A stretch of 47,167 bases of DNA. It comes from a virus. Lineage: Duplodnaviria; Heunggongvirae; Uroviricota; Caudoviricetes. The DNA is taken from IMG/VR virus record IMGVR_UViG_2861084961_000002; one strand, written 5' to 3'. The position numbers were made by a program, and so were the translations under genes. Shown piece by piece: positions 1,419-47,167 of this stretch (positions within the stretch are counted from its first letter, which is position 1; every line of letters begins with the position of its first letter). The notes under the pieces are model-generated. The model was given only the letters and a program-made list of their open reading frames with translations, was not told where the DNA came from and ran no database searches.

Positions 1419-2489
1419 TTATTTGATTTCAATTTTGTCCCACTCCCTGCCTCTGTCATCACGATACTGTGATGCCATGGTGTCCGACTTATGCCCGAGA
1501 AGATGTTGAGCAAACTTATCGCTTATCTGCTTCTCATAGAGTCTTGCAGACAAACTGCGCAACTCGTGAAAGGTAGGCGGATCCCCTTCGAAGGAAAGAC
1601 CTGATGCTTTTCGTGCGCGCATAAAATACCTTGATACTGTGCCGGATGAAAGCGGTTCACGACGAGTAGATGCAATTATGGTTTCTCCGCCAAGAATCTT
1701 TTTGCATTTATCAAGTGTTTCCTTCATTGATATCCCGAGAGCATCAACATGCAATGTTGTTGGGATGGCAATTTTTACGCCTGTTTTGCTTTGCTCGACA
1801 TAAAGATATCCATCTACGATATCAGACCACTTCATTTCGCATAAATCACCAACTCGCTGCCCGGTAACAACAGCCAGTTCCATTGCAAGTCTAAGCCAAC
1901 ATGGTGATGATTCTGCTGCTTGATAAATTTTCAGGTATTCGTCAGCCGTAAGTCTTGATCTCCTTACCTCTGATTTTGCAGCGCGAGTGGCTGCGACCGG
2001 GTTTGTTGTTATATGGCCTTCAGCTATAGCCTCTCGGAATGCATCGCTCAGTGTTGATCTGATTAACTTGGCTGATGCCGCCTTGCCCTCGTCTATGTAT
2101 CCATTGAGCATTGCCGCAATTTCTTTTGTGGTGATGTCTTCAAGTGGAGCATCAGGCAGACCCCTCCTTATTGCTTTAATTTTGCTCATGTAATTTATGA
2201 GTGTCTTCTGCTTGATTCCTCTGCTGGCCAGGATTTTTTCGTAGCGATCAAGCCATGAATGTAACGTAACGGAATTATCACTGTTGATTCTCGCTGTCAG
2301 AGGCTTGTGTTTGTGTCCTGAAAATAACTCAATGTTGGCCTGTATAGCTTCAGTGATTGCGATTCGCCTGTCTCGGCCTAATCCAAACTCTTTACCCGTC
2401 CTTGGGTCCCTGTAGCAGTAATATCCATTGTTTCTTATATAAAGGTTAGGGGGTAAATCCCGGCGCTCATGACTTCGCCTTCTTCCCAT
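1419..2489 (-). CDS. int: Integrase (tyrosine recombinase)
   Basis: 356-aa ORF recognised as lambda Int (MGRRRSHERRDLPPNLYIRNNGYYCYRDPRTGKEF...), adjacent to attL P' arm. Confidence 0.97.
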   Translation of the reverse strand: MGRRRSHERRDLPPNLYIRNNGYYCYRDPRTGKEFGLGRDRRIAITEAIQANIELFSGHKHKPLTARINSDNSVTLHSWLDRYEKILASRGIKQKTLINYMSKIKAIRRGLPDAPLEDITTKEIAAMLNGYIDEGKAASAKLIRSTLSDAFREAIAEGHITTNPVAATRAAKSEVRRSRLTADEYLKIYQAAESSPCWLRLAMELAVVTGQRVGDLCEMKWSDIVDGYLYVEQSKTGVKIAIPTTLHVDALGISMKETLDKCKKILGGETIIASTRREPLSSGTVSRYFMRARKASGLSFEGDPPTFHELRSLSARLYEKQISDKFAQHLLGHKSDTMASQYRDDRGREWDKIEIK

Positions 2490-2685
2490 TTCTGATCCTC
2501 TTCAAAAGGCTACCTGTTACTGGTCGATTTAAGTCAACCTTTACCGCTGATTCGTGGAACAGATACTCTCTTCCATCCTTAACCGGAGGAGGGAATATCC
2601 TGCACTCGCGTACCCATCGACGAACTGTTTCAAGGCTTCTTGGGCGTCGCTGGCGTGCGTTCCACTCCTGAAGTGTCAAGTACAT
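2467..2685 (-). CDS. xis: Excisionase
   Basis: 72-aa ORF recognised as lambda Xis (MYLTLQEWNARQRRPRSLETVRRWVRECRIFPPPVKDGREYLFHESAVKVDLNRP...), overlaps int start. Confidence 0.95.
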   Translation of the reverse strand: MYLTLQEWNARQRRPRSLETVRRWVRECRIFPPPVKDGREYLFHESAVKVDLNRPVTGSLLKRIRNGKKAKS

Positions 2686-2724
2686 CGCAAAGTCTCCGCA
2701 ATTACACGCAAGAAAAAACCGCCA

Positions 2725-2892
2725 TCAGGCGGCTTGGTGTTCTTTCAGTTCTTCAATTCGAATATTGGTTACGTCTGCATGTGCTATCTGCGCCCACAGC
2801 ATCCAGTGGTCATAGCAGTCGCTGATGTTCTCGGCTTCGATAACTCTGTTGAATGGTTCTCCATTCCATTCACCTGTGACTCGGAAGTGCAT
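2725..2892 (-). CDS. Small hypothetical protein, 55 aa (lambda orf55-like)
   Basis: Hand-translated ORF MHFRVTGEWNGEPFNRVIEAENISDCYDHWMLWAQIAHADVTNIRIEELKEHQAA, below the 60-aa track cutoff; same position as the small ORF upstream of xis in lambda. Confidence 0.6.
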   Translation of the reverse strand: MHFRVTGEWNGEPFNRVIEAENISDCYDHWMLWAQIAHADVTNIRIEELKEHQAA

Positions 2893-2904
2893 TTATCATC
2901 TCCA

Positions 2905-2929
2905 TAAAAAAAACTCGCCGTAGCGAGTT
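2905..2929 (-). terminator. Rho-independent terminator (minus strand)
   Basis: Stem AACTCGC/GCGAGTT with 4-nt loop; A-run on plus strand gives a U-run on the minus transcript. Confidence 0.55.
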
Positions 2930-3087
2930 CAGATAAAAGAAATCCCCGCGAGTGCGAGGATAGTTATTCATTGTCGATATTTACATTTATTTCGAATATC
3001 TTTACTGGGTAATCGCCAAAGTCATATATTTTTTATTCTGTTTTATAAGCACTACCAAGTACTGCTTATTACAAATAAGAAAAGGCT

Positions 3088-3118
3088 GAAAAAATATTTA
3101 AGGCCACAACTGTGGCCC
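3088..3118 (-). terminator. Putative terminator downstream of the secreted-protein gene
   Basis: Palindrome GGCCACA-ac-TGTGGCC followed on the minus strand by a T-rich tract. Confidence 0.45.
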
Positions 3119-3127
3119 TAAATTTAC

Positions 3128-3826
3128 TTACGGCACTGCGTTAATCAGATTACAAATACCTCTTTTGGCAGGGTCTGAATTCAACTTCTGAAAATTGGCG
3201 TTCAACATAGCCGTGTGTAAGTGATTCTCAACCTCAAAGAATAGGTCGATTTTGCCCTCTTTGGCTGCCTGTTTCTTCCAAATATTCACTTGGTCATCAG
3301 CAATACGACTAGCGCAAGTGAACAAGAACGAACTGCCTCTAGGAATGGATGTCGTGCTGTAATACTCACCATCTACTTCTACATATTTAGCTCGGAATGA
3401 CTCTAAGGTTAGCTTATTGCCGTTCTTGACCGACTTAGCTTCTGCCTTACTTGTATCTTCCTGCTCTTTAGAATGTTTCTGCGCCGACGTGGGTATGTCA
3501 TTGGCCGCTGTTACGCTGACTGAACTCCCCAAACCTTTGAGGCCATTAATTTGGATAAGATAAGCCAGCTCCAGAGCCTTATTATCAGTGAGTTTTCCAC
3601 GCATATTTACCCACTGACGTTGAACCATTTTTAGGGTGTCTGCGTTCTCTGGGTTTCCTTTGAGGGCACTAGAATAGGCAGAGCTAAGCTGTTCGTCTAA
3701 TTTTGACAGACGTTCGTTATCGCAGATTTTATGTTCGATTGCTGTCGAAGCCTTTTGGCAGTCAAAGCTGGCTGCAAATGCACCCGGCGATGCCACTAAC
3801 AATGATGCCAGTAGGATATTTTTCAT
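3128..3826 (-). CDS. Secreted protein with N-terminal LprI/DUF1311-like domain (accessory moron)
   Basis: Start chosen at MKNILLASLLVASPGAFAAS (Sec signal, AFA-A cleavage) with GGAG 7 nt upstream; FDCQKA...ICDNERLSKLDEQLSSAYSSAL...QRQWVNMR matches the LprI-type motif; AT-rich flanks. Confidence 0.7.
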   Translation of the reverse strand: MKNILLASLLVASPGAFAASFDCQKASTAIEHKICDNERLSKLDEQLSSAYSSALKGNPENADTLKMVQRQWVNMRGKLTDNKALELAYLIQINGLKGLGSSVSVTAANDIPTSAQKHSKEQEDTSKAEAKSVKNGNKLTLESFRAKYVEVDGEYYSTTSIPRGSSFLFTCASRIADDQVNIWKKQAAKEGKIDLFFEVENHLHTAMLNANFQKLNSDPAKRGICNLINAVP

Positions 3827-3956
3827 ATTCACTCCATAAATACAAAAGCGCATTACTATAGCACTTAACCGATCGCTTATCTCGCCCGTTCGTCATTCTT
3901 ATCTAACCAGAACATGCGACTGCCACAGCACATGTCGAGGATTGCTGCATGTCCAG

Positions 3957-4505
3957 TCACTGGTTGCCTCCTTTGCGAAGCTGGGCGGCTAACTCATCAC
4001 ATATGTGCGTCAAAGAGCAAAGTTTGATTGATGGATGTTCGCGCATCATCTCCACCCCCTGCGCCCGTACTTCAGCCAGGAAAGCATCGGTGGCTGGCAT
4101 ATTTCCTGTTGCCTTCATGGCCTCCAAAATAACCAGAACACCATCTCTCCCAATCTCCTCGCAGATAACCTCGGTGCTGTCGCCAACAACATCGCAGAAT
4201 TCCTGAACTGCTTTACGAGCCAGCTCATTCTCCGCCGCCAGCGCCGAAAACTTCTCGTGTGCCAACTTAACAGCTGCATCAGCCTGCTTAATTGACTCAG
4301 TCGCTTTCTGGTGGTCTTCGGCCAGCCCTGCTAAATCAGCCTCCAGTTCGGCTAGGCGTTCATTTAATGCATCTCGTTCATCCAGTAGAGCCAGCACAAC
4401 CTGAGGTGTGACTTTCATACGAAATGCCAGCAATTTTTGAGGTGTTGCTACTGTTTCAATTGCTACTGCCGCCTCACGCAGTGCCTGAGAGTTAATTTCG
4501 CTCAC
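3957..4505 (-). CDS. ea22: Ea22-like early protein (coiled-coil)
   Basis: 182-aa ORF, same length and N-terminus (MSEINSQALREAA...) as I recall for lambda Ea22; same map position. Confidence 0.6.
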   Translation of the reverse strand: MSEINSQALREAAVAIETVATPQKLLAFRMKVTPQVVLALLDERDALNERLAELEADLAGLAEDHQKATESIKQADAAVKLAHEKFSALAAENELARKAVQEFCDVVGDSTEVICEEIGRDGVLVILEAMKATGNMPATDAFLAEVRAQGVEMMREHPSIKLCSLTHICDELAAQLRKGGNQ

Positions 4506-4723
4506 TTCGAACCTCTCTGTTTACTGATAAGTTCCAGATCCTCCTGGCAACTTGCACAAGTCCGACAACCCTGAACGGCCAAGCGTCTTCGTTCATCTAT
4601 CGGATCGCCACACTCACAACAATGAGTGGCAGATATAGCCTGGTGGTTCAGGCGGCGCATTTTTATTGCTGTGTTGCGCTGTAATTCTTCAATTTCTGAT
4701 GCTGAATCAATGATGTCTGCCAT
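4502..4723 (-). CDS. DksA/TraR-family C4 zinc-finger protein
   Basis: 73-aa ORF with CxxC...CxxC (CCECGDPIDERRRLAVQGCRTCASC); ATGA overlap with downstream gene. Confidence 0.7.
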   Translation of the reverse strand: MADIIDSASEIEELQRNTAIKMRRLNHQAISATHCCECGDPIDERRRLAVQGCRTCASCQEDLELISKQRGSK

Positions 4724-7710: not shown

Positions 7711-7782
7711 TATTCCTTCGCTACCATCCATTGGAGGCCATCCTTCCTGACCATTTCCATCATTCCAGTCGAACTCACACTG
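7711..7782 (-). pseudogene. 3' fragment of the early-left gene split by the IS insertion (partner fragment 9031-9266)
   Basis: Removing the IS and one copy of the 3-bp duplication restores a continuous frame ...YGVVCEFDWNDGNGQEGCGLQWMVAKE* ending at 7710-7712. Confidence 0.55.
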
Positions 7783-7810
7783 AAGTGGTCAACAAAAACT
7801 GGCCACCGAG

Positions 7811-8958
<1,148 letters not shown>

Positions 8959-9030
8959 TATGGCACCTGTGTTGTTCTGAGGTGAGCATATCACCTCTGT
9001 TCAGGTGGCCAAATTCAGTAAACCACTTCA

Positions 9031-9435: not shown

Positions 9436-10333
<898 letters not shown>

Positions 10334-10491
10334 CTGGATTCTCTTGTCAGTTAGCTTTGGTGGTGTGTGGGAGTCGTAGTCCTGAACGAAAACACCCCAC
10401 GATTGGCTCATTTGCAGCTAATCCGGATTCGCACTTCCGGCCAATGTTTCGTTTCGTATCACACACCCCAAAGCCTTCTGCTTTGAATGCT

Positions 10492-10814: not shown

Positions 10815-11672
10815 TTATCGTTTATTTCTTTGATGTTTCTTTGCAGACTCAGCTTGAGTGTTTCCATACCTGCGTTTACCGCTATTGTTTTTTCCCCTAG
10901 GCTTGCCTTTTTTTCGATCTTCCCACCAGTCAGGTGCCGGGTCTGGCTCAACATGTAAAGCATCGGCAAGTCCTGATATCAAGCTGTATGACTGAACTCC
11001 ATCAATGTGCTCTGACAGTGATGGGGTAACATTCTGTCTTAGTGGATCAAGAATAAAATCAATACCTTTAATTCTGGCGTGTTTGGCGGCAGGCACAAAG
11101 TCTGAGTCCCCAGCAACAAGGACAATTACATCAACAAGTTTTTCATAAGCTAAAGTCGTGATATCCATCCCTAGCTTGATATCAACTTGTTTTTGTTTGA
11201 TGTCATAGTAAAAATCATCATTTGTCAGTTCATCCCATTTTTTCGTTCCTTTCATCAGAGCATCAAGGGAGAATGTAGTTAGTTGCCATCGCTTATTATC
11301 AACAAGATTCCCTAATCTTAAGGCTGTTTTTCGAGTTTTTCTTAACTCTTCATGCAGCTCCGTTCTCAGAATATATGATTTTTCGAGTTTGAAATTCTTG
11401 CGACCAGGCGTCTTATTGCCAGGCTCAGGAAGTGGAAGGCGTGTTTGAATGTCGAGTGGTGGACAGTCATAGAAGTAAATTCTATAAAGCTCAAGCGGTT
11501 CCCTACGTTCTTGTGATTGACGTTTTCCATTAAGATGGGAAAGAACCATTGACCATATTACTTTCATTATGCATTGCGCAGTCAGTTCATGCTCGGCGAA
11601 GTGTTTACGATGCGTAGCATGAACACGCTGCATGAAAAAACCCGCATCAATTAAAATTGCTGCTTTCTTCAT
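10815..11672 (-). CDS. NYN-domain (PIN-like nuclease fold) protein with lysine/arginine-rich C-terminal tail; occupies the rexA/rexB position downstream of cI
   Basis: 285-aa ORF; N-terminal AAILIDAGFF and central VIVLVAGDSDFVPAAKHARIKGIDFILDPL match NYN hallmark motifs from memory; not recognised as RexA or RexB. Confidence 0.75.
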   Translation of the reverse strand: MKKAAILIDAGFFMQRVHATHRKHFAEHELTAQCIMKVIWSMVLSHLNGKRQSQERREPLELYRIYFYDCPPLDIQTRLPLPEPGNKTPGRKNFKLEKSYILRTELHEELRKTRKTALRLGNLVDNKRWQLTTFSLDALMKGTKKWDELTNDDFYYDIKQKQVDIKLGMDITTLAYEKLVDVIVLVAGDSDFVPAAKHARIKGIDFILDPLRQNVTPSLSEHIDGVQSYSLISGLADALHVEPDPAPDWWEDRKKGKPRGKNNSGKRRYGNTQAESAKKHQRNKR

Positions 11673-11799: not shown

Positions 11800-12516
<717 letters not shown>

Positions 12517-18062: not shown

Positions 18063-19160
18063 TTAGAACTGGTAAACCAGACCTACAGCAACGATGTCAT
18101 CAGTGCTTACACCGAGTGCTTTAGTGAAGTCATTTTTGTCAAGCAGGTTGATTTTGTAATCAACGAAAGTAGACATATTTTTGTTGAAGTAATAGGTTGC
18201 ACCTACATCAACATATTTGACTAAGTCCTGATCGCCCCATACTCCAAGATCCTTACCTTTAGATTGCAGGTAAGCAACGGACGGACGCAGACCGAAATCG
18301 AACTGATATTGTGCAACAGCTTCGAAGTTTTGGGCTTTATTAGCAACGAAGTGATCAGCAAATACAGTCATATTCTGGGTTTCAGAATAGGTAGTGGCCA
18401 GGTAAATGTTGTTAGCGTCATATTTCAGACCTGCGGCCCAAACTTCTGCATTTTTACCGGAAGCAAATACTTCAGGAAGAACTTTCCCTGCATTAACTTG
18501 AGTGTCGGTACGATCAGATTTCGCATAAGTTGCACCGATACCGAATCCTTCGTATTCATAGGTAGCAGAGAAACCGAAGCCATCACCGTTACCTTCAGTG
18601 TAGTTATCGAAATCGCTACGATCGTTTTTGCCTTGGTACTGAGCAGCAAAATTCAGACCATCAACCAGACCAAAGAAGTCGTTGTTACGATAGGTTGCAA
18701 CACCAGTTGCACGTTGAGTCATGAACACGTCGGTTTGAGTCCAAGTGTCACCACCGAATTCTGGCAGGACGTCAGTCCACGCACCGATGTCGTATGCTAC
18801 ACCGTAGTTACGGCCGTAATCGATGGAGCCGTAGTCACCGAATTTCAGGCCAGCGAAGGCAAGACGGGTTTTATCTTTGGAGGAACCTTGAGATTCAGCG
18901 CGGTTGCCTTTGAATTCATATTCCCACTGACCGAAACCAGTCAGTTGATCGTTGATTTGGGTTTCACCTTTGAAGCCAAGACGGGCATAAGTAGTATCAC
19001 CATCATCTGCATCATTAGAGGAGAAGTAGTGCTTAGCATTAACTTTCCCGTACAGATCCAGCTTGTTACTGTCTTTATTATAAATTTCAGCTGCCTGAGC
19101 AGACATCGCCATCAGTACTGATGCAGCTACAGCAGAAATTGCCACTGTTAATTTTTTCAT
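18063..19160 (-). CDS. nmpC: Outer-membrane porin, NmpC/Lc (OmpC-family) type; lysogenic-conversion gene
   Basis: Start [23 protein letters not shown] (signal peptide) inside track ORF 18063-19220; C-terminal ...VAVGLVYQF beta-barrel signature. Confidence 0.9.
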
Positions 19161-19587
19161 CGTGAGCCCTTTTTTTGAACTATTATTAAAAAATGATGTC
19201 ACTGCGCGATAAATATTCATCTAATCAATGTGATTATTTCAAGATGTAAGTTTTGGTTTCTCGTTTGATTTGTGAAGTAGATCTCTATTTTTATCTGAAC
19301 TTTTTTCTATCGAATCCTATTCATGGCTCTTGGCTGAATAAAAATAAATCTGTTAGCCAATTTATATTAACGGCTGTTATTTATAAGCGCTCTATAATTT
19401 GAAGGTTCAATTTAAACCAGCTAAAAATAACACTGGAAATTATTTGTTGGTTATTTGTTGAGATTTGCTTATGTATTTGTAGTGGTGTTTTCAATACTCG
19501 GTAGCATTCTCGCAAATATCATTTAGTGGTTTACGTACGTAAAAAATTGGTTATGCTGTTAAGAGTGGTTACTTCGTCACACAGCTT

Positions 19588-19732: not shown

Positions 19733-19948
19733 ATGAAATCCATGGATAAGTTAACAACGGGTGTCGCCTATGGCACCTCAGCAGGTAGTGCCGGGTACTG
19801 GTTTTTACAGCTGCTAGATAAAGTCACGCCCTCACAGTGGGCGGCAATTGGAGTGCTGGGTAGCCTGGTATTTGGCCTGCTGACGTACCTGACAAACCTT
19901 TATTTCAAGATTAAAGAAGATAAGCGCAAGGCTGCGAGAGGTGGATAA
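19733..19948 (+). CDS. S: Holin (phage 21 S-type; dual start MKSMDK)
   Basis: 71-aa ORF with transmembrane segments and charged C-terminus; GAGGTGGGG RBS. Confidence 0.9.
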
Positions 19949-20445
19949 TGCCTCCATCATTACGAAAAGCTGTTGCTGCTGCTATTGGTGGCGGGGCTAT
20001 TGCTATAGCATCTGTATTAATCACTGGCCCAAGTGGTAACGATGGTCTGGAAGGTGTGAGACATAATCCTTACAAAGACATAGTTGGTGTATGGACTGTA
20101 TGTCACGGGCATACAGGAAAAGACATCATTCCCGGTAAAACGTATACCGAAGCAGAGTGCAAAGCCCTCCTGAATAAAGACCTTGCCACTGTCGCCAGAC
20201 AAATTAACCCGTACATCAAAGTCGATATACCGGAAACAACGCGCGGCGCTCTTTACTCGTTCGTCTACAACGTGGGTGCTGGCAATTTCAGAACATCGAC
20301 GCTTCTTCGCAAAATAAACCAGTGTGATATTAAAGGCGCATGTGATCAGCTACGTCGCTGGACATATGCTGGCGGTAAGCAATGGAAAGGTCTCATGACT
20401 CGTCGTGAGATTGAGCGTGAAATCTGTTTGTGGGGTCAGCAATGA
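19948..20445 (+). CDS. R: Endolysin (lysozyme, SAR-type N-terminus)
   Basis: 165-aa ORF with hydrophobic N-terminus [15 protein letters not shown] and lysozyme-like body; overlaps holin stop. Confidence 0.9.
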
Positions 20446-20903
20446 ACAGAGTAACCGCGATTATCTCCGCTCTGGTTATCTGCATCATCGTCGGCCTGTC
20501 ATGGGCTGTTAATCATTACCGTGATAACGCCATTACCTACAAAGCCCAGCGCGACAAAAATGCCAGAGAACTGAAGCTGGCGAACGCGGCAATTACTGAC
20601 ATGCAGATGCGTCAGCGTGATGTTGCTGCGCTCGATGCAAAATACACGAAGGAGTTAGCTGATGCGAAAGCTGAAAATGATGCTCTGCGTGATGATGTTG
20701 CCGCTGGTCGTCGTCGGTTGCACATCAAAGCAGTCTGTCAGTCAGTGCGTGAAGCCACCACCGCCTCCGGCGTGGATAATGCAGCCTCCCCCCGACTGGC
20801 AGACACCGCTGAACGGGATTATTTCACCCTCAGAGAGAGGCTGATTACTATGCAAAAACAACTGGAAGGAACCCAGAAGTATATTAATGAGCAGTGCAGA
20901 TAG
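20442..20903 (+). CDS. Rz: Spanin inner-membrane subunit Rz
   Basis: Start [22 protein letters not shown] (TM) then coiled coil; overlaps endolysin stop. Confidence 0.85.
20662..20844 (+). CDS. Rz1: Spanin outer-membrane lipoprotein subunit Rz1, embedded in Rz
   Basis: 60-aa ORF with lipobox VVGC and proline-rich tail, in the +1 frame of Rz. Confidence 0.85.
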
Positions 20904-41019: not shown

Positions 41020-41619
41020 ATGCGTAAAGTTTGTGCAGCAATTTTGTCCGCAGCCATTTGTCTGGCCGTATCCGGTGCGCCTGCATGGGCATCTGAACAT
41101 CAGTCCACGCTGAGCGCGGGGTATCTTCATGCCTCGACGAACGTTCCCGGCAGCGATGATCTGAACGGGATTAACGTGAAATACCGTTATGAGTTTACGG
41201 ACACACTGGGGATGGTGACGTCATTCAGCTATGCAGGAGACAAGAATCGCCAGCTTACCCGTTACAGCGATACCCGCTGGCATGAAGATTCCGTTCGTAA
41301 CCGCTGGTTCAGCGTGATGGCGGGGCCGTCTGTGCGCGTGAATGAATGGTTCAGCGCGTATGCGATGGCGGGTGTGGCTTACAGCCGTGTGTCGACTTTC
41401 TCCGGGGATTATCTCCGCGTAACTGACAACAAGGGGAAAACGCACGACGTGCTGACCGGAAGTGATGACGGTCGCCACAGCAACACGTCTCTGGCGTGGG
41501 GAGCTGGCGTGCAGTTTAACCCGACCGAATCCGTGGCCATTGATATTGCTTATGAAGGCTCCGGCAGCGGTGACTGGCGTACCAACAGTTTCATCGTTGG
41601 TGTCGGTTATAAATTCTGA
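41020..41619 (+). CDS. lom: Lom outer-membrane protein (Ail/Lom family), lysogenic conversion
   Basis: 199-aa ORF with signal peptide and beta-barrel ending VGVGYKF. Confidence 0.92.
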
Positions 41620-46469: not shown

Positions 46470-46745
46470 GTGGCTTCTGTTTCTATCAGCTGTCCCTCCT
46501 GTTCAGCTACTGACGGGGTGGTGCGTAACGGCAAAAGCACCGCCGGACATCAGCGCTATCTCTGCTCTCACTGCCGTAAAACATGGCAACTGCAGTTCAC
46601 TTACACCGCTTCTCAACCCGGTACGCACCAGAAAATCATTGATATGGCCATGAATGGCGTTGGATGCCGGGCAACTGCCCGCATTATGGGCGTTGGCCTC
46701 AACACGATTTTACGTCACTTAAAAAACTCAGGCCGCAGTCGGTAA
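46470..46745 (+). CDS. insA: IS1 InsA
   Basis: 91-aa [51 protein letters not shown]... Confidence 0.95.
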
Positions 46746-47167
46746 CCTCGCGCATACAGCCGGGCAGTGACGTCATCGTCTGCGCGGAAATGGACGAACA
46801 GTGGGGCTATGTCGGGGCTAAATCGCGCCAGCGCTGGCTGTTTTACGCGTATGACAGGCTCCGGAAGACGGTTGTTGCGCACGTATTCGGTGAACGCACT
46901 ATGGCGACGCTGGGGCATCTTATGAGCCTGCTGTCACCCTTTGACGTGGTGATATGGATGACGGATGGCTGGCCGCTGTATGAATCCCGCCTGAAGGGAA
47001 AGCTGCACGTAATCAGCAAGCGATATACGCAGCGAATTGAGCAGCATAACCTGAATCTGAGGCAGCACCTGGCACGGCTGGGACGGAAGTCGCTGTCGTT
47101 CTCAAAATCGGTGGAGCTGCATGACAAAGTCATCGGGCATTATCTGAACATAAAACACTATCAATAA
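46664..47167 (+). CDS. insB: IS1 InsB frame (expressed as InsAB' transposase by -1 frameshift)
   Basis: 167-aa ORF in the -1 frame overlapping insA 3' end, running to the window edge. Confidence 0.9.

What the first reader, a model, noticed from the sequence alone, without database searches (positions are those of the whole stretch)
3128..3826. Secreted LprI/DUF1311-like protein replaces ea8.5 between xis and ea22
A 232-aa protein with a clear Sec signal peptide has an N-terminal domain matching the LprI-type motif (FDCQKA...ICDNERLSKLDEQLSSAYSSAL...QRQWVNMR), a Ser/Thr/Lys-rich linker, and an unrecognised C-terminal domain of about 95 aa. The gene sits in an AT-rich insert of roughly 500 bp more than lambda has here and is bracketed by terminator-like hairpins (2905-2929 and 3088-3118). 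A periplasmic protein carried in the int-xis accessory slot points to a lysogenic-conversion or envelope-level function.
Basis: partly seen in the sequence, partly recalled or inferred. Interest (0 to 1): 0.55.

Follow-up and report, generated by a model that had tools for sequence, protein, structure and literature searches.

The report
Exported two-domain phage accessory protein
A lambda-like prophage carries, in place of lambda's ea8.5, a self-contained accessory gene for an exported two-domain protein; databases call it a "lysozyme inhibitor" without evidence, and it more likely shields the cell envelope against other phages or bacterial attack.

Summary
A 232-aa ORF lies on the minus strand at 3128-3826. 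It has a Sec-type signal peptide and a partial DUF1311/LprI match: Pfam PF07007, 25.2 bits against a cutoff of 22, covering profile positions 1-70 of 106. A disordered linker evolves neutrally (dN/dS 0.95). The C-terminal domain is confidently modelled (pLDDT 88) but matches no Pfam family and no solved structure.

The slot is 503 bp longer than in lambda, and no ea8.5 homologue is present. Both hairpins lie 3' of the gene, so they do not bracket it.

The gene is not new as a sequence. RefSeq calls it "lysozyme inhibitor LprI family protein" in 124 of 5,426 complete E. coli genomes. It also occurs in phage ev099 and SSU5-type phage-plasmids, and PHROGs lists it as phrog_4675, function unknown.

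The name is weakly founded. There is no MliC-type domain, and the LprI-domain protein ScwA gives no lysozyme resistance.

Full-length homologues sit in the early region of about 66 virulent T4-like Aeromonas phage records. Those phages largely lack Spackle. A distant relative lies in a Yersinia island carrying Lamassu.

The best reading is a periplasmic binder that blocks an incoming cell-wall hydrolase, giving superinfection exclusion or T6SS immunity. This mechanism is inferred, not shown.

The parts
3128..3826 (-). CDS of the 232-aa exported two-domain protein (the stop codon is 3128-3130)
   Evidence: An identical gene is annotated in RefSeq. It matches phrog_4675 over its full length, E 3.5e-94. 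Overall dN/dS against the SSU5 copy is 0.16.
3773..3826 (-). Signal peptide, residues 1-18 (MKNILLASLLVASPGAFA, predicted cleavage before ASFDC)
   Evidence: The hydrophobic core and the AxA motif were identified. The same ...A-x-A|ASFDC junction is kept in distant homologues. This is a rule-based reading, not SignalP.
3530..3772 (-). N-terminal helical domain (residues 19-99), a partial DUF1311/LprI match with Cys23 and Cys35
   Evidence: Pfam PF07007 scores 25.2 bits against a cutoff of 22 and covers profile positions 1-70 of 106. AlphaFold2 places helices at 29-36, 38-57, 59-76 and 82-97, with pLDDT around 80-89. dN/dS is 0.087.
3416..3529 (-). Disordered Ser/Thr/Lys/Glu-rich linker (residues 100-137)
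   Evidence: pLDDT is below 50 for residues 101-136. dN/dS is 0.945. Length and sequence vary between homologues.
3131..3415 (-). C-terminal domain (residues 138-232): a short helix, a beta-hairpin, two long helices and a short helix. Invariant residues are G153, C171, D178, A187, F196, N209 and C225.
3832..3835 (-). Shine-Dalgarno GGAG, 5 nt upstream of the ATG
   Evidence: Read directly from the sequence. It is identical in SSU5.
3855..3863 (-). Promoter-like extended -10 element (TGCTATAGT), with a weak -35
   Evidence: It is the single match in the window, but 0.69 matches are expected by chance. The element is kept as TGATATAGT in the SSU5 copy, inside the block of conserved DNA. The standard promoter scan did not report it. 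It is a candidate only.
3086..3123 (-). Intrinsic terminator directly after the stop codon (12-bp stem, GGCCAC/GTGGCC core, then AUAUUUUUU)
   Evidence: The terminator scan found it. It folds at -17.6 kcal/mol with z -5.0. The stem is conserved in SSU5.
2911..2961 (-). Two tandem terminator-like hairpins (2961-2942 and 2930-2911) between the cassette and orf55. They belong to the lambda/HK022-type backbone.
   Evidence: Found (z -6.1). They lie inside the stretch that is 97% identical to lambda. HK022 annotates a tL4 terminator under the homologous DNA.
3091..3895 (.). Minimal cassette shared with SSU5-type phage-plasmids: promoter-like site, gene and terminator
   Evidence: It is 83.3% identical to SSU5 over exactly this span.
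2705..3977 (.). Larger module exchanged among lambdoid prophages: orf55, hairpins, AT-rich spacer, gene and upstream region
   Evidence: It is 98.4% identical over this span to a prophage with a different integrase at sbcB. The same module sits in the same slot at the mdtA and ybhC sites.

Best explanation
The gene is a real accessory gene under purifying selection, built like a 'moron' (a self-contained extra gene in a prophage). It belongs to an ev099-like lambdoid prophage integrated at the lambda att site next to ybhC.

The product is exported by Sec and released as a soluble periplasmic protein of about 23.6 kDa. It has two folded heads joined by a roughly 38-residue flexible tether:
- The first head is a DUF1311-like helical module.
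- The second head is an undescribed domain made of a hairpin plus three helices, which carries two invariant cysteines.

The most likely mechanism is stoichiometric binding, without catalysis, of a cell-wall-degrading enzyme that enters the periplasm from outside. That enzyme could be the tail-associated muramidase of a superinfecting phage or a T6SS peptidoglycan hydrolase effector. The result would be that the lysogen, or in virulent relatives the infected cell, is protected. Functionally this resembles T4 Spackle or a DUF1311 T6SS immunity protein.

Shown here:
- The ORF and its export signal.
- The domain layout and the pattern of selection.
- The cassette structure and the family's distribution.

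Inferred, not shown:
- Periplasmic location.
- The disulfides.
- Expression in lysogens.
- The target and the protective phenotype.
For: The gene is real and under constraint:
- dN/dS against the SSU5 copy is 0.087 for the N-domain, 0.066 for the C-domain and 0.945 for the linker.
- Both domains are confidently modelled.

It looks exported:
- The signal peptide and AxA site were identified.
- Both C-domain cysteines are invariant across all relatives.

It is an autonomous cassette:
- The Shine-Dalgarno sequence, the extended -10 and the strong terminator are all conserved in the SSU5 copy.
- Its GC content is lower than the surrounding DNA.
- It is present in some related phages and absent in others. 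It is found in 124 of 5,426 E. coli genomes, in prophages with three different integrases and att sites, and in about 126 SSU5-like phage-plasmids.

DUF1311 proteins counter periplasm-acting cell-wall effectors:
- Etsi4 rescues the periplasmic toxicity of Etse4 (PMC12981562).
- Similar immunity proteins are predicted in Pantoea and S. Dublin (PMC9796082, PMC8867033).

The function is not tied to lysogeny:
- Full-length homologues (hhalign probability 98.8%, E 7e-17) are syntenic early-region genes in 66 T4-like Aeromonas phage records.

The distribution is nearly complementary to Spackle:
- Spackle homologues occur in 904 phage records, of which at most 4 can be Aeromonas phages.
- 44RR2.8t and Asfd_1 lack sp at the syntenic place.
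- Spackle is itself a periplasmic helical protein, stabilised by a disulfide, that inhibits the gp5 tail lysozyme (PMC7677548).

Relatives sit in defence contexts:
- The Yersinia relative lies on a small integrative island with Lamassu (LmuB E 3e-92) and PDC-S71 (E 1.7e-140).
- Lipoprotein relatives lie on integrase/AlpA-bearing elements next to small membrane proteins.
Against: - No target has been identified, and no muramidase or effector gene sits next to the gene in any context examined.
- There is no sequence or fold similarity to Spackle or to any solved inhibitor.
- There is no PADLOC match.
- The complementary distribution with Spackle may simply reflect host genus.
- The promoter-like element is no more than chance would give on its own, so expression in lysogens is unproven.
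- ScwA shows that an LprI-domain protein can instead regulate the host's own peptidoglycan enzymes (PMC7933661).
- The DUF1311 match is partial.
Confidence: 0.4

Rival explanations
1. It modulates the host's own peptidoglycan-remodelling enzymes, as ScwA does. The periplasmic protein would bind a lytic transglycosylase or hydrolase such as MltD and change its level or activity, adjusting the wall of the lysogen or infected cell for the phage's benefit.
For: ScwA is the only experimentally studied periplasmic enterobacterial protein with an LprI domain. It raises MltD levels, depends on disulfides, and causes lysis when overproduced (PMC7933661). The protein here is likewise soluble, periplasmic and contains cysteines. 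This reading would make sense in both temperate and virulent phages.
Against: No homology to ScwA beyond the shared Pfam family was found. ScwA carries the domain at its C-terminus, within a 275-aa all-helical protein. This reading does not explain why relatives sit in defence islands and satellite-like elements.
Confidence: 0.15
2. It excludes other phages by masking a host envelope component rather than by inhibiting an enzyme. The protein would bind a periplasmic, inner-membrane or outer-membrane component that other phages need for DNA entry, in the manner of T5 Llp/Cor or HK97 gp15.
For: The same context evidence applies as for the best explanation: it is an accessory cassette beside int-xis, relatives lie in defence islands, and it is present in virulent phages. 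Relatives are flanked by small membrane proteins, including a TM2-domain protein, or are lipid-anchored through long Pro-rich tethers. Pseudomonas proteins fuse the same N-module to a multi-pass membrane domain.
Against: The window gene stands alone, with no membrane partner. The only functional data for DUF1311 domains concern cell-wall enzymes.
Confidence: 0.2
3. It is a classical inhibitor of animal lysozyme, a lysogenic-conversion or virulence factor. This is what the RefSeq name and the first reader's proposed assay suggest.
For: The Pfam family is named after M. tuberculosis LprI, which inhibits lysozyme (cited). The protein is periplasmic. Many of the carrying strains come from animals and patients.
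Against: There is no MliC, PliC, Ivy or PliG-type domain, and the C-domain is mainly helical. In LprI the MliC domain carries the proven inhibitory activity, and ScwA does not protect against lysozyme (PMC7933661). The family is conserved in virulent phages of fish-associated Aeromonas, where defence against host lysozyme would serve the phage little.
Confidence: 0.1
4. It is a safety buffer for the phage's own SAR endolysin, mopping up enzyme that is released into the periplasm too early.
For: This prophage has a P21-type lysis cassette. It consists of a 71-aa pinholin-like protein and a 165-aa lysozyme with a Gly/Ala-rich N-terminus of the SAR type.
Against: The gene lies in the early leftward region, about 16 kb from the lysis genes, and moves independently of them. 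Linkage to SAR endolysins in the other carriers was not tested here.
Confidence: 0.06

Closest known systems
DUF1311/LprI family (Pfam PF07007), including the T6SS immunity protein Etsi4 of EHEC and the predicted immunity proteins of Pantoea and S. Dublin
   Same: - It has a Sec signal followed by a cysteine-bearing helical module that scores above the Pfam threshold.
- It is a periplasmic protein.
- The family members with functional data act on periplasm-acting cell-wall enzymes (PMC12981562, PMC9796082, PMC8867033).
   Different: - Only profile positions 1-70 of 106 are matched.
- There is no adjacent effector gene.
- A second, unclassified domain follows on a flexible tether.
- The gene is carried by phages rather than by T6SS clusters.
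M. tuberculosis LprI (Rv1541c)
   Same: The overall logic is the same: an exported protein with a DUF1311 module followed by a second domain.
   Different: LprI is a lipoprotein, and its second domain is MliC (PF09864), a known lysozyme-inhibitor domain. Here there is no lipobox, and the second domain is an unrelated fold that is mostly helical.
Salmonella ScwA (SL1344_0490)
   Same: It is a soluble periplasmic enterobacterial protein with an LprI domain and functionally important cysteines, acquired by horizontal transfer (PMC7933661).
   Different: ScwA is 275 aa with the LprI domain at its C-terminus, and it is chromosomal. It has no detectable relation to the C-domain described here.
T4 Spackle (gp61.3)
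   Same: - It is phage-encoded and Sec-exported.
- It is a small periplasmic helical protein stabilised by a disulfide.
- It is an early gene in the replication-gene region of T4-like phages.
- Its distribution is nearly complementary to this family among T4-like phages (PMC7677548).
   Different: - The protein here has two domains and is about three times larger.
- A functional equivalence is a hypothesis only.
Lambda ea8.5 and lambdoid morons such as bor and lom
   Same: It occupies the ea8.5 position. Like a moron, it has its own terminator, a candidate promoter and deviant GC content, and it is present in some related phages and absent in others.
   Different: It is unrelated to Ea8.5. Its expression from the prophage has not been shown.

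Membership tests
Pfam PF07007 (LprI/DUF1311) | Score at or above the curated gathering threshold | tested here: met
   It scores 25.2 bits against a cutoff of 22, E 2.2e-5. Ten of 14 family members match, with a best E-value of 4e-7.
Pfam PF07007 (LprI/DUF1311) | Match over the whole domain, including the C-terminal part that carries the second conserved cysteine pair | tested here: not met
   Only profile positions 1-70 of 106 align. The N-domain has two cysteines, C23 and C35, and none after the QRQW motif. ScwA-type members have four conserved cysteines (PMC7933661).
Pfam PF07007 (LprI/DUF1311) | Helical-bundle fold matching solved DUF1311 structures | tested here: inconclusive
   The model shows four helices between residues 29 and 97. 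Foldseek against the PDB gave no match with E below 3. A profile search of PDB sequences gave nothing.
Proteinaceous lysozyme inhibitors (MliC/PliC, Ivy, PliG, PliI) | A beta-rich inhibitor domain, e.g. MliC (PF09864) | tested here: not met
   There is no such Pfam hit for any of the 14 family members. The C-domain model has one hairpin and is otherwise helical.
Proteinaceous lysozyme inhibitors (MliC/PliC, Ivy, PliG, PliI) | Inhibition of lysozyme activity | not testable with these tools
   This needs an enzyme assay with purified protein.
T4 Spackle family | Sequence or fold homology to gp61.3 | tested here: not met
   [not shown]
T4 Spackle family | Binds and inhibits the tail lysozyme gp5 in the periplasm | not testable with these tools
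   This needs binding and activity assays. Only the complementary distribution and the early-region position are available.
T6SS effector-immunity pairs with a DUF1311 immunity protein | The immunity gene lies next to its cognate periplasm-acting effector gene | tested here: not met
   The neighbours are xis/orf55 and an ea22-like gene here. They are early or accessory phage genes in SSU5. In the other prophages they are phage recombination and accessory genes. It could at most be an orphan immunity gene.
Lambdoid moron (autonomous accessory cassette) | Its own terminator and its own promoter | tested here: inconclusive
   The terminator is strong and conserved. The promoter is only a conserved extended -10 candidate that chance alone could produce. 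No expression data are available.
Lambdoid moron (autonomous accessory cassette) | Present in some and absent in other closely related phages, with deviant base composition | tested here: met
   It is absent from lambda and present in ev099 and in 107 E. coli chromosomes. The gene is 44% GC and the spacer 34% GC, against 51% for the window.

The most novel reading that the evidence does not exclude
The family is a previously unrecognised class of phage-encoded periplasmic anti-muramidase, or entry-blocking, superinfection-exclusion proteins. It would be the functional counterpart of T4 Spackle. It is shared by temperate coliphages, SSU5-type phage-plasmids, defence islands and Aeromonas T4-like phages. 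On this reading the hairpin-plus-three-helix C-domain is a new inhibitor fold and the DUF1311-like head is a second binding module.
Probability: 0.2. Interest if true: 0.65.

Novelty: new variant of a known kind. Interest (0 to 1): 0.4.

Why it matters
If the protein blocks incoming cell-wall hydrolases, it would add a second family to a class of phage-borne, envelope-level exclusion factors for which the paradigm found here is T4 Spackle. It would also show that the same device is used by temperate phages, phage-plasmids and virulent phages.

It would give a function to a PHROG family and to an unclassified domain. It would also correct a widely propagated annotation, "lysozyme inhibitor", that rests on the wrong domain of the founding protein.

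In practical terms, about 2% of complete E. coli genomes and many Enterobacter, Citrobacter and Salmonella phage-plasmids carry the gene. It could therefore affect phage susceptibility in clinical and poultry strains.

If instead it turns out to be one more DUF1311 protein of unclear role, the finding is an ordinary accessory gene.

Tried and rejected
- Solved structures by sequence: searches with the single protein and with a family profile found nothing relevant.
- AlphaFold database: the afdb50 library was not available.
- Defence-system models: PADLOC gave no hit for the protein or for orf55.
- NCBIfam: it gave only sub-threshold noise, namely CpoB, A1S_1983 and mevalonate kinase.
- RNA families: Rfam on 2400-4600 gave nothing near threshold. 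The AT-rich spacer is therefore not a known sRNA.
- Signs of transposition: no flanking direct or inverted repeats were found.
- Small partner ORFs: none lie in the 3' spacer.
- Spackle homology: it was rejected.
- Non-coding or decaying ORF: this was rejected on dN/dS.
- Depth of the family: the word-indexed homologue searches mostly returned close relatives. The C-domain is rare even in an exhaustive HMMER scan.
- Not done: linkage of the cassette to SAR-type endolysins was not tested, because it would need many whole-prophage downloads.

Full report
**What is there.**
- The window starts with the host gene ybhC on the minus strand at 1-1284. It then runs into a lambda-like prophage.
- Int (98.9% identical to lambda), Xis (98.6%) and the 55-aa orf55 (96.4%) are all present.
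- The whole left arm is 99.9% identical to phage ev099, apart from an IS insertion.
- The ORF in the finding lies on the minus strand at 3128-3826 and encodes 232 aa.
- It has a GGAG Shine-Dalgarno 5 nt before the ATG.
- Its N-terminus reads as a Sec signal peptide: a Lys n-region, the hydrophobic core ILLASLLVA, the cleavage motif A-F-A|AS, and no lipobox. This is a rule-based reading, because SignalP was not available.

**Comparison with lambda.**
- Lambda DNA homology ends at 2967 and resumes at 4461.
- The interval between orf55 and the ea22-type gene is 1064 bp here and 561 bp in lambda, a difference of +503 bp.
- Lambda Ea8.5 has no homologue anywhere in the window.
- The gene is 44% GC and the 3' spacer (2893-3127) is 34% GC, against 51% for the window.
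The hairpins at 3123-3096, 2961-2942 and 2930-2911 are all on the gene's strand and all lie 3' of it. They bracket the AT-rich spacer, not the gene.
- The two hairpins nearest orf55 belong to the lambda/HK022-type backbone. HK022 annotates tL4 under the homologous DNA.

**Anatomy of the protein.**
- Pfam PF07007 (LprI/DUF1311) matches residues 23-78 at 25.2 bits, above the cutoff of 22. Only profile positions 1-70 of 106 are covered.
- AlphaFold2 with a 14-sequence alignment gives a four-helix N-domain (residues 29-97, pLDDT around 80-89), a disordered stretch (101-136, pLDDT below 50) and a folded C-domain.
- Modelled alone, the C-domain reaches pLDDT 88 and pTM 0.79. It consists of a short helix, a beta-hairpin, two helices of about 25 residues each, and a short final helix.
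- A Nei-Gojobori comparison with the SSU5 copy gives dN/dS of 0.087 for the N-domain, 0.945 for the linker and 0.066 for the C-domain. That means two constrained heads joined by a neutrally drifting tether, so this is a working gene.
- Across all relatives the invariant positions are D44, R76, G153, C171, D178, A187, F196, N209 and C225.
- The two invariant C-domain cysteines fit a periplasmic disulfide. That is an inference, since the model coordinates could not be inspected.

**How known it is.**
- RefSeq already annotates the identical gene as "lysozyme inhibitor LprI family protein".
  - It is found in 124 of 5,426 complete E. coli genomes, at 108 chromosomal and 17 plasmid places.
  - The same annotation appears in phage ev099 and in SSU5.
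- PHROGs has it as phrog_4675, function unknown.
- About 126 plasmids of roughly 105-120 kb from Enterobacter, Citrobacter, Escherichia and Salmonella carry a full-length copy at about 78-81% identity.
- The C-domain has no Pfam family.
- The C-domain gave only 12 hits among 1.84 billion representative proteins.

**A mobile cassette.**
- The block shared with SSU5 is exactly 3091-3895 (83% identity). It comprises about 70 bp upstream, the gene and the terminator.
- Within that upstream stretch, the Shine-Dalgarno sequence and an extended -10 (TGCTATAGT at 3863-3855; TGATATAGT in SSU5) are conserved.
- The terminator stem is also conserved. It folds at -17.6 kcal/mol with z -5.0.
- The -10 motif alone is no rarer than chance, and the standard promoter scan missed it. 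Expression in the lysogen therefore remains a hypothesis.
- Among lambdoid prophages a larger module, 2705-3977, moves as a unit.
  - It always sits in the slot after int-xis-orf55.
  - It occurs in prophages with different integrases, at sbcB, mdtA and ybhC.

**Wider family.**
- The exhaustive search and a later profile search found distant relatives with the same layout. These are P0055, P0057 and P0061, and P0063 and P0058 from Yersinia enterocolitica.
- Two lipoprotein versions, P0060 and P0064, have a Pro-rich tether.
- The Yersinia copy lies on a small element bounded by serine recombinases. That element also carries a Lamassu system (LmuB E 3e-92, LmuA 6e-26, LmuC 1.8e-5) and the candidate defence gene PDC-S71 (E 1.7e-140).
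- The lipoprotein versions lie on short metagenome contigs. One of these also carries a tyrosine integrase and AlpA-type genes, as integrative elements do. Both are preceded by a small membrane protein (69 and 93 aa) and followed by a TM2-domain protein.
- A fold search of viral models hit proteins of T4-like Aeromonas phages.
- Asfd_1 gp84 has the same signal-ASFDC head, linker and C-domain. It aligns to the family profile with 98.8% probability, E 7e-17.
- The family is present in 66 Aeromonas T4-like phage records.
- In those phages it always sits in the early replication-gene region, between 61/denV and 56.
- Pseudomonas megaplasmids carry the same N-terminal module fused to a coiled coil and a multi-pass membrane domain. 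The head is therefore a reusable periplasmic module.

**What the name is worth.**
- In M. tuberculosis LprI, the domain with proven lysozyme-inhibiting activity is MliC, not DUF1311.
- The periplasmic LprI-domain protein ScwA of Salmonella gave no lysozyme resistance and instead controls MltD levels (PMC7933661).
- The protein here has no MliC, PliC or Ivy-type domain, and its second domain is largely helical.
- On the other hand, single-domain DUF1311 proteins do act against periplasm-acting cell-wall toxins.
  - Etsi4 rescues the periplasmic toxicity of the LysM effector Etse4 (PMC12981562).
  - Similar immunity roles are predicted in Pantoea and S. Dublin.

**Most likely mechanism.**
- Several facts have to be explained together:
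  - The protein is exported.
  - It has two constrained binding-type heads on a tether.
  - It has no catalytic signature.
  - Both virulent and temperate phages carry it.
  - Relatives sit in defence contexts.
  - DUF1311 proteins have a precedent against cell-wall hydrolases.
- I think the best explanation is a periplasmic stoichiometric binder. It would neutralise a cell-wall hydrolase arriving from outside, either a superinfecting phage's tail muramidase or a T6SS effector. The outcome would be exclusion or immunity.
- T4 Spackle is the functional paradigm: an early, periplasmic, helical protein stabilised by a disulfide that inhibits the gp5 lysozyme (PMC7677548).
- Spackle homologues occur in 904 phage records, of which at most 4 can be Aeromonas phages.
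- 44RR2.8t has 41 directly next to 61.1, with no sp between them. Neither 44RR2.8t nor Asfd_1 has a Spackle match in that region.
- This complementary distribution is suggestive only, because host genus could explain it.
- There is no homology to Spackle, so this is a claim about how the protein works, not about which family it belongs to. I put it at about 0.4.

**Rivals.**
- ScwA-like modulation of the host's own wall enzymes (0.15).
- Exclusion by masking a host envelope component (0.2).
- True inhibition of animal lysozyme, as the name says (0.1).
- Buffering of the prophage's own SAR endolysin (0.06). The window does carry a P21-type pinholin and SAR-lysozyme pair. However, the gene moves independently of the lysis module.

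**Verdict.**
The protein is exported, DUF1311-like and acts at the envelope. The lysozyme-inhibitor and lysogenic-conversion framing is not supported.
- The gene is already catalogued and is modestly widespread, so as a sequence it is not new.
- Three things do not appear in the annotations, family libraries or papers searched here:
  - The confidently folded but unclassified C-domain.
  - The link to a conserved early gene of Aeromonas T4-like phages.
  - The resulting exclusion hypothesis.
- I rate it a new variant of a known kind, of moderate interest.

Noticed in passing
window 7781-9027: An IS3-family element (ORFs at 7811-8629 and 8656-8994, minus strand) is inserted in the leftward early operon. 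It is absent from phage ev099, whose homology resumes at 9028. It lies upstream, in the pL transcription direction, of gam, bet, exo, the ea22-like gene, the LprI-like gene, xis and int, so it may be polar on them.
   Followed up: partly
window 18063-19220 (-): The prophage carries a porin of 385 aa (Pfam Porin_1, E 5.6e-157) just upstream of the lysis genes. This is another envelope-altering accessory gene.
   Followed up: no
window 19733-20903 (+): The lysis cassette is P21-type rather than lambda-type. It has a 71-aa pinholin-like protein, a 165-aa lysozyme with a Gly/Ala-rich N-terminus of the SAR type, and Rz.
   Followed up: partly
window 10815-11672 (-): A 285-aa NYN-domain protein sits between N (10010-10411) and the cI-type repressor (11800-12513). 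That is the position of rexAB in lambda. It has only a weak PADLOC hit (HEC-09, E 2e-4). It is a candidate prophage defence gene.
   Followed up: no
window 3957-4505 (-): The ea22-like gene has the same length as lambda ea22 (182 aa) but shares only the first 45 residues with it, at 53% identity. The mosaic joint lies inside the gene, at about 4461.
   Followed up: partly
window 41020-41619 and 46664-47167: A Lom/Ail-family outer-membrane protein is present (E 1.9e-121). An IS1 transposase ORF runs off the right end of the window.
   Followed up: no
L004 486-6576 and 8712-9235 (Yersinia enterocolitica island): The island that carries the distant relative P0063 also encodes Lamassu (LmuA/B/C) and PDC-S71, bounded by two serine recombinases. 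Just downstream of P0063 the sequence read by eye shows what look like three tandem copies of an AT-rich repeat of about 170 bp; no repeat tool was run on it.
   Followed up: partly
L008 1423-1671; L009 7735-7944 and 8745-8999: The lipoprotein relatives of the C-domain family are followed directly by a TM2-domain membrane protein (E 4.8e-20). They are preceded by a small membrane protein (69 aa in L009, 93 aa in L008); the 69-aa one has a weak holin-like hit. This may be a conserved three-gene envelope module.
   Followed up: partly
L014 2444-3529; L015 2441-3646 (Pseudomonas megaplasmids): Proteins of 361-401 aa start with the same signal-ASFDCSKAS...QRxW module. They continue into a Gln/Ala-rich coiled coil and a multi-pass membrane domain, and have no Pfam match.
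   Followed up: partly
window 3762-3896 (-) and proteins P0049, P0051: Some database homologues begin with a frame-shifted upstream reading (…KQSVKCYSQALLYLWSEYEKYPTGII…) that corresponds to the 44-aa alternative-frame ORF overlapping the start of the gene. These are probably frameshifted or miscalled copies.
   Followed up: no
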